From a virus, in the IMG/VR virus record IMGVR_UViG_3300045988_055118, positions 8,622 through 72,621 of that record: a DNA stretch of 64,000 bases. The stretch is one strand, 5' to 3'. A program made the position numbers and the translations under genes. The notes under the pieces are model-generated. The model ran no database searches. It saw only the letters and a program-made list of their open reading frames with translations, and was not told the DNA's origin. Each line of letters starts with the position of its first letter. The stretch's first letter is position 1. Positions 28,703 through 29,263 of the stretch are shown here, one piece after another.

Positions 28703-29263
28703 ATGAAAAGAACTATTGAAATTGAATGTCCAGATGGCTACAAACCAGTTTACAATGCAGAGACTGGAAAAGTAGAAATTGTTCCTAGTAGCTCTACAGA
28801 AAGGATAAAATCCTTCACGGACGCTACCAACGAGATGGGAGTATGTCTTGCTACATACATGAGAGAAAACCAATCTATAGAATCCCTCTCTAGGCTACAA
28901 TTAATTATTGATGCCTTAAACGAAGGACATAAGTTTAATCTATTAACTGGAACTGTATGGTATCCTTGGGTTCGGTTCTTTAGAATGAAATCAGTACCGA
29001 AAGATGCAGAGGTCATTGGACACTTCCGTTATCAGGGCGAGAAATTCGCGTTGGTGGGCGGCTACGCGGATGATGGCGGCAATGCGGGTCTCGGCTATTT
29101 CTATTCTAGCTATGGCGTCGGCAATGCCTATTCCCATGTCGGGATGCTTGCGTGCAAATCTGAGGAGATTGCCAAATATGTATCAACTCAGTTTGGAAAG
29201 TTAGTGTTTGATGCTTGTTTTGTAAGACATTTTGAAGGTAAAGAATTTGAATGGCTAGACTAA
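28703..29263 (+). CDS. second DGR target protein (contains VR2 near C-terminus)
   Basis: 186-aa ORF. Residues GGYADDGGNAGLGYFYSSYGVGNAYSHVG are encoded by VR2. Confidence 0.6.
   Translation: MKRTIEIECPDGYKPVYNAETGKVEIVPSSSTERIKSFTDATNEMGVCLATYMRENQSIESLSRLQLIIDALNEGHKFNLLTGTVWYPWVRFFRMKSVPKDAEVIGHFRYQGEKFALVGGYADDGGNAGLGYFYSSYGVGNAYSHVGMLACKSEEIAKYVSTQFGKLVFDACFVRHFEGKEFEWLD
29053..29143 (+). repeat. DGR variable repeat 2 (VR2), plus-strand copy of TR
   Basis: 91-nt alignment to the coding-sense TR. 17 mismatches, every one at a TR adenine. GC-rich relative to flanks. Confidence 0.75.

What the first reader, a model, noticed from the sequence alone, without database searches (positions are those of the whole stretch)
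28703..29263. Second, remote DGR target: VR2 on the opposite strand, 27 kb from the TR, in a standard-code gene within the tRNA array
The plus-strand segment 29053-29143 aligns over 91 nt with the coding-sense TR. It has 17 mismatches, all at TR adenines. It encodes GGYADDGGNAGLGYFYSSYGVGNAYSHVG near the C-terminus of a 186-aa protein, the same G-L-G-Y-F-Y-S-S motif as the VR1-encoded tail of the primary target. The VR1 and VR2 mismatch sets differ, so the two targets diversify independently from one TR. A remote target on the other strand, in an early/auxiliary block translated with the standard code, is unusual. It implies that two proteins of different expression class share one hypervariable ligand-binding module. 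An imperfect hairpin (GCAAATCT-gagg-AGATTGC) follows VR2.
Basis: seen in the sequence. Interest (0 to 1): 0.85.

Follow-up and report, generated by a model that had tools for sequence, protein, structure and literature searches.

The report
Active remote second DGR target
A gut crAss-like phage uses one mutagenic retroelement to rewrite both its tail-fibre tip and, 27 kb away on the other strand, a loop in a small uncharacterised protein encoded among its tRNA genes; the second target is real, active and conserved, though distant targets as such are already known.

Summary
Window 29053-29143(+) aligns without gaps to the template repeat (TR, 2020-2110, minus strand). There are 17 mismatches, all at TR adenines (P about 1e-10). 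VR1 (2221-2311, minus) has 20, also all at adenines.

VR2 is an active target, not a fossil:
- Across 34 related genomes, TR-adenine positions carry 1.29 bits of entropy against 0.056 for the others.
- 17 database proteins match the window protein exactly outside the VR, yet differ at 8-14 of its 30 VR residues.
- Where a genome's TR has non-adenine changes, both VR1 and VR2 carry them.
- Each near-complete genome has one TR, so VR2 is served in trans.

A second DGR lineage (RT about 74% identical) hits the same small-protein family. One of its genomes has two such remote targets.

The host protein has no Pfam hit. A confident AlphaFold model matches no PDB fold, C-type lectin included. It shares only a 40-residue strand-VR-strand cassette with the tail protein.

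The post-VR hairpin is no more stable than chance. Non-adjacent DGR targets were already documented, so this is a new variant of a known kind. The protein's function is unknown.

The parts
29053..29143 (+). VR2, the variable repeat of the remote target
   Evidence: 91-nt ungapped match to the TR with 17 mismatches, all at TR adenines. Across 34 genomes, entropy is 1.29 bits at A positions against 0.056 at non-A positions.
28703..29263 (+). VR2 target gene: 186-aa uncharacterised small protein (phrog_11581 family). The VR encodes residues 118-147.
   Evidence: ORF. No Pfam hit. phrog_11581, unknown function, E = 3e-15. 836 homologues, none with a functional name (the few named are 'hypothetical protein'). 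AF2 model pLDDT 90.4 with no PDB fold match.
29154..29172 (+). Imperfect inverted repeat GCAAATCT-GAGG-AGATTGC, 10 nt after VR2, lying inside the coding sequence (KSEEIA)
   Evidence: Present in the sequence. DNA folding z = +0.51, not significant. A synonymous GAG>GAA change weakens the stem in about 10 of 35 genomes without compensation.
28600..28673 (+). tRNA-His, directly upstream of the target gene on the same strand
   Evidence: ARAGORN. The same tRNA-His-then-gene arrangement is found in 8 of 9 lineage-1 loci scanned. In the second lineage, tRNA-Thr ends just before the gene in 4 of 5 loci (L191, L193, L184, L195).
2020..2110 (-). TR (template repeat), 30 adenines in 91 nt, non-coding, between the VR1 gene and the RT gene
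   Evidence: It is the only A-rich copy in the window, and there is one TR per genome in related genomes.
2221..2311 (-). VR1, the variable repeat of the adjacent (primary) target
   Evidence: 20 mismatches to the TR, all at adenines.
2194..4011 (-). VR1 target gene: 605-aa tail protein with 6 in-frame TAG codons read as sense
   Evidence: TAG-sense ORF. phrog_5302 tail protein, E = 5e-85.
665..1876 (-). DGR reverse transcriptase gene with 3 in-frame TAG codons (it may read through to 602). It carries the motif G-N-Y-L-S-Q (GxxxSQ).
   Evidence: Translation. phrog_1423 reverse transcriptase, E = 1e-113.
19588..19660 (-). Suppressor tRNA with anticodon CTA, which reads TAG and so lets the recoded RT and VR1 target genes be translated
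   Evidence: ARAGORN. It is 77% similar to tRNA-Gln(TTG) at 34204-34276 (inverted repeat I2).

Best explanation
VR2 is a functional, currently active second target of the single diversity-generating retroelement (DGR) of this roughly 186-kb, TAG-recoded, Zeta-type crAss-like phage.

Mechanism. The RT (665-1876, minus strand) copies an RNA of the TR (2020-2110) into cDNA and misincorporates opposite template adenines. That cDNA replaces VR1 in the adjacent tail-protein gene. Acting in trans, it also replaces VR2, which lies 26.9 kb away on the other strand, in a 186-aa protein gene just downstream of tRNA-His in the standard-code tRNA/replication block. The two VRs are overwritten in separate events.

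Selection. About 21 adenine positions (10-12 codons) are left free to vary. At about 9 other adenine positions, selection restores G (Ser or Asp becomes Gly).

Shared module. The two targets share only a cassette of about 40 residues (strand, VR loop, strand). It sits in two otherwise unrelated scaffolds. The VR2 scaffold is a widespread family of small phage proteins (175-210 aa) whose predicted fold is not recognisably a C-type lectin.

What is shown: the adenine-specific pattern, population-level hypervariation, transfer of TR changes to VR2, a single TR per genome, and recurrence of the family as a target in a second DGR lineage.

What is inferred: the retrohoming steps themselves (by analogy with Bordetella phage BPP-1), that the invariant G in GTCGGG (A in the TR) marks the 3' homing boundary, that the protein is a variable binding protein, and that it is non-structural and expressed with the tRNA array.
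For: - Adenine-only mismatches: 17 of 17 for VR2, P about 1e-10. Only three copies exist in the window, against 0 expected.
- In 27 related genomes that have both loci, own-TR versus VR2 gives 15-25 adenine mismatches. There are no non-adenine mismatches in 20 genomes and one in 3 more.
- Co-variation: genomes 065173 and 061465 have four C>T changes in the TR (positions 12, 24, 39, 87), and genome 059915 has T>C at position 2. In each genome both VR1 and VR2 carry that genome's changes.
- Entropy is 1.29 bits at A positions against 0.056 bits at non-A positions. The flanking codons of the gene are nearly invariant.
- 17 proteins are 100% identical to the window protein over the 156 non-VR residues, yet differ at 8-14 of the 30 VR residues. 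All 17 VRs are distinct.
- An IMG/VR pattern scan found no contig with more than three copies. Where all three are present, they are two adjacent copies on one strand and one on the opposite strand.
- A second lineage with a different TR has remote opposite-strand VRs in homologues of the same protein family. Within the repeat itself the mismatches are at TR adenines; the few non-adenine mismatches counted fall in the flanks on inspection. Contig 106556 has two such targets.
- VR1 and VR2 of one genome are no more similar than those of different genomes (p = 0.72).
- Profile-profile similarity between the two target families is limited to 40 residues (probability 97%).
- RT: GxxxSQ motif and phrog_1423. 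VR1 target: tail protein phrog_5302.
Against: - No read-level or time-series data were available, so diversification within one population was not observed directly.
- No convincing cis element for target recognition was found beyond the repeat itself. The post-VR hairpin is not significant and not conserved by covariation. No extended IMH is shared by VR1 and VR2 downstream of GTCGGG.
- No Avd-type accessory gene is evident in the cassette. This rests on inspection only and was not searched systematically.
- One related genome (058615, L029) has a VR2 with 13 non-adenine mismatches, so targeting can be lost.
- About 9 TR adenines are almost always G in both VRs. That implies either very strong selection after each homing event or partial conversion tracts. 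This is unresolved.
- The function and cellular location of the protein are unknown.
Confidence: 0.9

Rival explanations
1. VR2 is a fossil. It was once copied from VR1 or the TR, is no longer rewritten, and now merely drifts.
For: One relative (L029, genome 058615) has a decayed VR2 with 13 non-adenine mismatches, so decay does happen. No significant hairpin or IMH was found.
Against: Drift would hit all four bases, yet the 61 non-A positions are essentially invariant (0.056 bits) while A positions are near-saturated. 17 proteins identical outside the VR have 17 different VRs. TR non-A changes are mirrored in VR2.
Confidence: 0.02
2. VR2 is kept similar to VR1 by DNA recombination or gene conversion between the two VRs, not by retrohoming from the TR.
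For: VR1 and VR2 share 12 identical A>G changes in the window. In principle this could reflect copying from one VR to the other.
Against: VR1 and VR2 of one genome are no more alike than those of different genomes (p = 0.72). All VR1/VR2 differences sit at TR-adenine positions. The shared G positions are the same in all genomes and sometimes retain the TR-encoded Ser or Asp (14-31% of proteins), as expected from selection on fresh TR copies.
Confidence: 0.03
3. VR2 is served by another DGR (its own TR and RT) located outside the 64-kb window.
For: The window covers only about a third of the genome.
Against: No contig in the IMG/VR scan, including the near-complete 183-193 kb relatives, has more than three copies of the repeat core, and where all three are found only one is A-rich. 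VR2 follows the non-A variants of this TR.
Confidence: 0.02
4. Functional alternative A: the 186-aa protein is a virion component, either an accessory receptor-binding or adhesin subunit or a decoration protein. On this reading VR2 extends host or surface recognition in the same way VR1 does.
For: The VR cassette is the one used by the tail protein; the VR segment alone hits phrog_5302. Family members swap N-terminal modules, as receptor-binding proteins do with their anchors. Two-target phage DGRs in the literature are interpreted in this way (PMC10743442).
Against: The gene lies in the standard-code tRNA/replication block on the opposite strand from all structural genes. It has no in-frame TAG, whereas most of the minus-strand (structural-block) ORFs longer than 150 aa have 3-28. 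There is no fold or sequence similarity to known virion proteins.
Confidence: 0.4
5. Functional alternative B: the protein is a non-structural, intracellular variable binder made together with the tRNAs. On this reading it is directed at a polymorphic host factor such as a defence protein.
For: Its position and code usage are as described above. The gene is always directly downstream of a tRNA on the same strand. By inspection there is no signal peptide or transmembrane segment. Neighbouring genes are small accessory genes.
Against: Nothing tested here bears on binding partners. DGR targets with demonstrated functions are surface-exposed or virion proteins. The model gives no hint of function.
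Confidence: 0.35

Closest known systems
Bordetella phage BPP-1 DGR (mtd / avd / TR / brt), the prototype
   Same: A phage-borne RT with the GxxxSQ motif, one TR, adenine-specific TR-to-VR information transfer, and a tail receptor-binding protein as the adjacent target.
   Different: BPP-1 has one target, an Avd accessory protein, a defined GC-rich IMH, and a functional hairpin or cruciform after the VR. Here there are two targets 27 kb apart on opposite strands. No Avd is evident, no extended IMH is shared by the two VRs, and the hairpin is not significant. The RT and the primary target are also TAG-recoded.
DGRs with non-adjacent or remote targets (Treponema denticola TvpA plus remote targets; survey of Wu et al. 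2018, PMC5758913)
   Same: One TR and RT act in trans on VRs away from the cassette. 45 of 372 DGRs have such targets, and in phage-associated DGRs they usually lie within 50 kb. The 27-kb distance here fits that pattern.
   Different: The known remote targets are C-type-lectin/FGE-sulfatase or Ig-type proteins. Here the remote target belongs to an uncharacterised small-protein family with no detectable C-type-lectin fold. It sits in a tRNA array, and its genetic-code context differs from that of the cassette.
Two-target phage DGRs nd4 / nd12 (tentaclins; PMC10743442)
   Same: One TR templates VRs in two unrelated phage proteins. The VR sequences differ between the two targets of one phage, and only the hypervariable hairpin is shared.
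   Different: In nd4 and nd12 both targets lie inside the cassette of small myoviruses and both are C-type-lectin proteins, one of which also has Ig domains. Here the second target is 27 kb away in the non-structural block of a 186-kb crAss-like phage, and its fold is unrecognised.
[quoted passage not shown]
   Same: Same kind of phage by genome features: 183-189 kb, about 27 tRNAs, a CTA suppressor, amber recoding of the RT, a tail-fibre target with a C-terminal VR, and a GxxxSQ RT.
   Different: That paper describes only tail-fibre targets next to the RT, plus extra TR-VR pairs in phage Lera. In the passages read, it does not mention a remote VR in the tRNA block.

Membership tests
Diversity-generating retroelement (DGR) | A reverse transcriptase of the DGR clade with the GxxxSQ motif | tested here: met
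   The RT ORF contains ...GVPIGNYLSQFF... and YADD. It hits phrog_1423 reverse transcriptase at E = 1e-113. No phylogenetic placement was done.
Diversity-generating retroelement (DGR) | A TR/VR pair that differs only at TR adenines | tested here: met
   VR2 17 of 17 and VR1 20 of 20 mismatches are at adenines. The same holds in 20 of 27 related genomes for VR2.
Diversity-generating retroelement (DGR) | Unidirectional information transfer from TR to VR (TR constant, VR variable, TR changes propagated) | tested here: met
   The TR is identical in most genomes while the VRs all differ. Non-A TR variants are carried by both VRs. Entropy is 1.29 against 0.056 bits.
Diversity-generating retroelement (DGR) | VR at the 3' end of a protein-coding target gene | tested here: met
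   VR1 ends 9 codons before its stop. VR2 covers codons 118-147 of 186, which is the last third but not the terminal part.
Diversity-generating retroelement (DGR) | IMH at the VR 3' end, IMH* in the TR, and a downstream hairpin or cruciform (BPP-1 type) | tested here: inconclusive
   Only GTCGGG (VRs) against GTCGAG (TR) is common to both VRs, and the flanks then diverge. The hairpins after VR2 and VR1 give z = +0.51 and -1.05. There are no compensatory changes.
Diversity-generating retroelement (DGR) | An accessory protein (Avd, HRDC or similar) | not tested
   No ORF lies between the VR1 gene, the TR and the RT. The literature reports that most Zeta crAss-like DGRs lack Avd (PMC12386605). 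No profile search for Avd was run.
C-type-lectin-fold DGR variable proteins (Mtd, TvpA, TaqVP type) | The target domain adopts a C-type lectin / FGE-sulfatase fold | tested here: not met
C-type-lectin-fold DGR variable proteins (Mtd, TvpA, TaqVP type) | The VR forms a strand-loop-strand element ending in a conserved Gly-aromatic/hydrophobic strand | tested here: met
   A 40-residue segment aligns between the VR2 family and the tail-protein family at 97% probability. The model places strand 113-124, then a loop of lower confidence, then the VGML segment.
Zeta crAss-like phages (proposed Echekviridae) | A genome of about 155-190 kb, a tRNA block with replication genes opposite a structural block, a CTA suppressor with amber recoding, and a Crassvirales-type terminase | tested here: met
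   Related contigs are 183-193 kb. The window has 28 tRNAs including anticodon CTA, and the structural block needs TAG read as sense. TerL is 28% identical to crAss-like phages cr52_1 and cr109_1. The features match Table 1 of PMC12386605. No phylogeny was made.

The most novel reading that the evidence does not exclude
The DGR of these phages diversifies not only a virion receptor-binding protein but also a non-structural, intracellular small protein. That protein is built on a previously unrecognised (non-lectin, non-Ig) scaffold and is co-expressed with the tRNA array. Under this reading it would be a phage-encoded hypervariable binder aimed at polymorphic host intracellular factors such as defence or tRNA-targeting systems. 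That would extend DGR biology in phages from adsorption to intracellular conflict. It would also add a third structural class of DGR variable protein.
Probability: 0.2. Interest if true: 0.85.

Novelty: new variant of a known kind. Interest (0 to 1): 0.58.

Why it matters
DGR surveys of metagenomes look only next to the RT gene (Roux et al. 2021 say so explicitly). The 2025 description of Zeta crAss-like DGRs lists only tail-fibre targets. Here, a whole clade of abundant human-gut phages has a conserved second target, and sometimes a third, tens of kilobases away.

That target belongs to a family of small proteins with more than 800 hits in a 90%-identity-clustered protein database and about 230 clusters at 50% identity. 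The family has no annotation and no recognisable fold.

This gives three things:
- A compact 186-aa natural scaffold that tolerates randomisation of 10-12 positions.
- A case where the same 40-residue variable cassette works in two unrelated protein contexts.
- A testable question about whether phage DGRs act on non-virion functions.

It also shows that searching whole genomes with adenine-masked TR patterns recovers targets that cassette-centred tools miss.

Tried and rejected
- Hairpin after VR2 as a homing signal. DNA folding z = +0.51 for VR2 and -1.05 for VR1. There is no covariation, and about 10 of 35 genomes carry an uncompensated stem-weakening synonymous change. Rejected as evidence.
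- First AF2 run with a shallow alignment of 20 close homologues. It gave pLDDT 51.6 and was unusable. It was replaced by a 41-sequence diverse alignment, which gave pLDDT 90.4.
- The afdb50 fold library was unavailable. BFVD returned only uncharacterised phage proteins.
- GenBank/INPHARED phages. There was no DNA or protein match to the VR2 gene, only tRNA hits.
- Shared ligand or co-selection of VR1 and VR2. Within-genome similarity is not elevated (p = 0.72 for nucleotides, 0.56 for amino acids).
- Further VR copies in this lineage. None was found in the window, and no related IMG/VR contig has more than three copies of the repeat core.
- PDB sequence search with the tail-protein C-terminal family. 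Only noise was returned.
- The upstream ORF 28124-28588 as a full paralogue. Only its N-terminal half shows weak similarity (hhalign 74%).

Full report
OBSERVATION

The window holds three copies of a 91-nt repeat. The A-rich copy lies at 2020-2110 on the minus strand (30 A of 91 nt) and is the TR. A second copy lies at 2221-2311 on the minus strand (VR1). The third lies at 29053-29143 on the plus strand (VR2).

Aligned without gaps, VR2 differs from the TR at 17 positions, all of them TR adenines (12 A>G, 4 A>T, 1 A>C). If 17 mismatches fell at random among 91 positions, the chance that all hit the 30 adenines is about 1e-10. VR1 has 20 mismatches, also all at adenines. VR1 and VR2 differ from each other at 10 positions, all TR-adenine positions. 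A pattern made of the 61 non-adenine positions finds only these three sites, against none in 100 shuffles.

VR2 encodes residues 118-147 (VGGYADDGGNAGLGYFYSSYGVGNAYSHVG) of a 186-aa ORF at 28703-29263 that ends in TAA. tRNA-His lies 30 nt upstream of the ORF, and tRNA-Ser and tRNA-Trp lie downstream. Every factual element of the finding is therefore correct. One nuance: 39 residues follow the VR, so it is not at the extreme C-terminus.

THE ELEMENT AND ITS GENOME

On the minus strand, the TR is followed by a reverse-transcriptase gene (about 665-1876). It has three in-frame TAG codons, the motif IGNYLSQ (GxxxSQ) and YADD, and it hits phrog_1423 at E = 1e-113. VR1 ends a 605-aa ORF (2194-4011) that has six in-frame TAGs and is a tail protein (phrog_5302, E = 5e-85).

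The minus-strand block from 1 to about 19 kb has long ORFs only if TAG is read as sense. The plus-strand block from about 20 kb onward tiles under the standard code. A tRNA with anticodon CTA sits at 19588-19660 and resembles the phage's tRNA-Gln.

The large terminase is about 28% identical to those of crAss-like phages. Related IMG/VR contigs are 183-193 kb. These features match the amber-recoded, DGR-positive Zeta crAss-like group ctoVY1 / cthgQ11 / 3717_85572 in Table 1 of PMC12386605. That paper places the DGR cassette in the structural block and most tRNAs in the replication block.

IS VR2 ACTIVE?

I fetched 35 loci that encode relatives of the 186-aa protein and 80 loci that encode relatives of the RT. 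I then paired them by contig.

- Mismatch pattern. In 27 genomes with both loci, each genome's own TR differs from its VR2 at 15-25 adenines. There are no non-adenine differences in 20 genomes and one in three more.
- Co-variation. Genomes 065173 and 061465 carry four C>T substitutions in the TR (positions 12, 24, 39, 87), and genome 059915 carries a T>C at position 2. In each genome both VR1 and VR2 carry that genome's substitutions. This is what TR-to-VR information transfer predicts, and independent drift does not predict it.
- Entropy. Across 34 copies of the gene, mean column entropy is 1.29 bits at the 30 TR-adenine positions and 0.056 bits at the 61 others. The codons on either side of the VR are almost invariant.
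- Near-identical proteins. Among 99 full-length database homologues, 17 are identical to the window protein over all 156 non-VR residues. They differ from it at 8-14 of the 30 VR residues, and no two share a VR.
- Copy number. A scan of IMG/VR with the adenine-masked core found no contig with more than three copies. Where all three are present they are two adjacent copies on one strand (VR1 and the TR) and one on the opposite strand (VR2). There is no second TR and no third VR.
- Independence. VR1 and VR2 of one genome are no more similar than VR1 and VR2 taken from different genomes. The permutation p is 0.72 for nucleotides at 21 hypervariable sites and 0.56 for amino acids. The two VRs are therefore rewritten and selected independently.

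Together these results exclude three alternatives: a fossil copy, maintenance by VR1-VR2 recombination, and a separate hidden DGR.

One relative (058615, locus L029) has a VR2 with 13 non-adenine mismatches. The target can evidently decay.

A RECURRENT TARGET FAMILY

RT relatives at about 74% identity carry a different TR (...AATTCCAGTCTCAGTAACTTC...). A scan with that TR's adenine-masked core again found remote copies on the opposite strand in several genomes. These copies lie in homologues of the same small protein. Within the repeat the mismatches are at TR adenines. The non-adenine mismatches counted fall in the flanks or in a misregistered stretch, judged by inspection.

Contig 106556 (174 kb) has two such remote targets in paralogous genes, in addition to the tail-protein VR. 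A shorter contig has two of these genes 4.8 kb apart. In the first lineage tRNA-His sits directly upstream on the same strand in 8 of 9 loci scanned. In the second lineage tRNA-Thr ends just before the gene in 4 of 5 loci.

THE TARGET PROTEIN

The protein has no Pfam hit. Its only family assignment is phrog_11581, of unknown function (E = 3e-15). The VR segment alone matches the C-terminus of tail-protein phrog_5302. There are 836 homologues in the large protein collection, none with a functional name, and 231 clusters at 50% identity, mostly 175-210 aa.

With an alignment of 41 diverse members, AlphaFold2 gave a confident model (pLDDT 90.4, pTM 0.84). It consists of an N-terminal beta-hairpin, three helices, a three-stranded sheet whose last strand leads into the VR loop (pLDDT 63-86), three further helices and a terminal strand.

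- Foldseek against PDB gave nothing below E = 0.5.
- BFVD returned only uncharacterised phage proteins, including some from crAss-like phages.
- Profile-profile comparison of this family with the tail-protein C-terminal family aligns only 40 residues, namely strand, VR, strand (probability 97%).

The two targets therefore share a small variable cassette set in otherwise unrelated proteins.

CIS ELEMENTS

Both VRs end in GTCGGG where the TR has GTCGAG. That position is G in all 34 VR2 copies. Beyond it, VR1, VR2 and the TR diverge. I take this as the 3' boundary of homing and a possible IMH/IMH* discriminator. It could equally reflect selection for glycine.

It lies in conserved coding sequence, and in about 10 of 35 genomes a synonymous change weakens it without compensation. 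The shorter stem after VR1 is likewise not significant (z = -1.05).

SELECTION PATTERN

About nine TR adenines (positions 0, 3, 7, 25, 33, 40, 62, 67, 89) are G in nearly all VR2 and VR1 copies. This turns TR-encoded Ser, Asp or Glu into Gly. The TR-encoded residue survives in 14-31% of proteins at some of these sites. At the remaining 21 positions all four bases occur, with A retained in about 36% of cases. The extent of this constraint is unexplained. It implies heavy purifying selection after each homing event, or partial conversion tracts.

COMPARISON WITH WHAT IS KNOWN

DGRs acting on non-adjacent targets are established. Wu et al. found 45 of 372 DGRs with such targets. They noted that for phage-associated DGRs the non-adjacent target is usually within 50 kb, presumably inside the same prophage (PMC5758913). 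Phage DGRs with two targets inside the cassette, sharing only a hypervariable hairpin, have also been described (PMC10743442).

Three things are not described in the papers I read:
- A conserved remote target in the tRNA/replication block of Zeta crAss-like phages. PMC12386605 lists only tail-fibre targets. The large metagenome survey states that it could not detect remote targets (PMC8144416).
- A target family without a recognisable lectin or Ig fold.
- A cassette and a remote target that lie in differently coded parts of a recoded genome.

VERDICT

The hairpin adds nothing. The function of the protein remains open. A virion accessory binder and an intracellular binder are both compatible with the data, and I cannot separate them with these tools. 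The finding is a new variant of a known kind, of moderate to good interest.

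Noticed in passing
window 19588-19660 (-) and 34204-34276 (+); also 21946-22016 (+): The TAG-suppressor tRNA (anticodon CTA, called 'Pyl' by ARAGORN) is 77% similar over 69 nt to the phage's own tRNA-Gln(TTG). This suggests it arose from tRNA-Gln and that TAG is read as Gln. A second putative suppressor with anticodon TTA (reading TAA) lies at 21946-22016, yet TAA still appears to act as a stop.
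   Followed up: partly
window 28124-28588 (+): The 154-aa ORF just upstream of tRNA-His shares an N-terminal module (LEQAREWYESGNEDLKKLALTAF...) with the alternative N-termini of some members of the VR2 protein family. It aligns weakly to the family over its first half (hhalign 74%, E = 3e-5) and lacks the VR cassette. It may be a non-diversified relative.
   Followed up: partly
L191 and L192 (contig IMGVR_UViG_3300045988_106556); L180 (contig 3300039381_000048): In a related DGR lineage, one genome has two remote small-protein targets (paralogues) plus the tail-protein VR, giving three VRs for one TR. Another contig has two such genes 4.8 kb apart.
   Followed up: partly
L029 (contig IMGVR_UViG_3300045988_058615), VR2 region near 3336: This VR2 has 13 non-adenine mismatches to its own TR and a shorter ORF, while VR1 in the same genome is clean (17 adenine mismatches, 0 others). 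It looks like a target that has dropped out of DGR control.
   Followed up: no
TR positions 0, 3, 7, 25, 33, 40, 62, 67, 89 (window 2110 down to 2021 on the minus strand; VR2 29053, 29056, 29060, 29078, 29086, 29093, 29115, 29120, 29142): Nine TR adenines are almost always G in both VRs of all genomes (Ser, Asp or Glu in the TR becomes Gly in the VRs). The TR thus encodes a sequence that is rarely tolerated in the products. It is unexplained how productive homing stays frequent enough.
   Followed up: partly
L069 (contig 056908) and L038 (contig 059870), TR copies: Some TRs carry G or T where the consensus TR has A: six positions in 056908 and four at the 5' end in 059870. This looks as if VR-like sequence had been copied back into the TR, or the TR is itself mutating at adenines.
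   Followed up: no
window 30488-31015 and 31031-32989 (+): A 652-aa SPFH/Band-7 protein (Pfam PF01145, E = 2e-17) has a long Ala/Glu/Lys-rich repeat region (33-nt periodic repeats at 31763-32661). It is preceded by a 175-aa membrane-protein-like ORF. Both are embedded in the tRNA array.
   Followed up: partly
window 29251-29511, 29508-29813, 30273-30491 (+): The small ORFs just downstream of the VR2 gene start with hydrophobic, signal-peptide or lipoprotein-like N-termini (for example MARLIVILLLLASC...). The first also has CxxC zinc-ribbon motifs with weak DnaJ-CXXCXGXG / anti-TRAP similarity.
   Followed up: no
window 39406-39488 (+): ARAGORN calls a tRNA-Tyr with the unusual anticodon ATA. 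Two tRNA-Tyr(GTA), two tRNA-Cys(GCA) and three tRNA-Met(CAT) genes also lie in the array.
   Followed up: no
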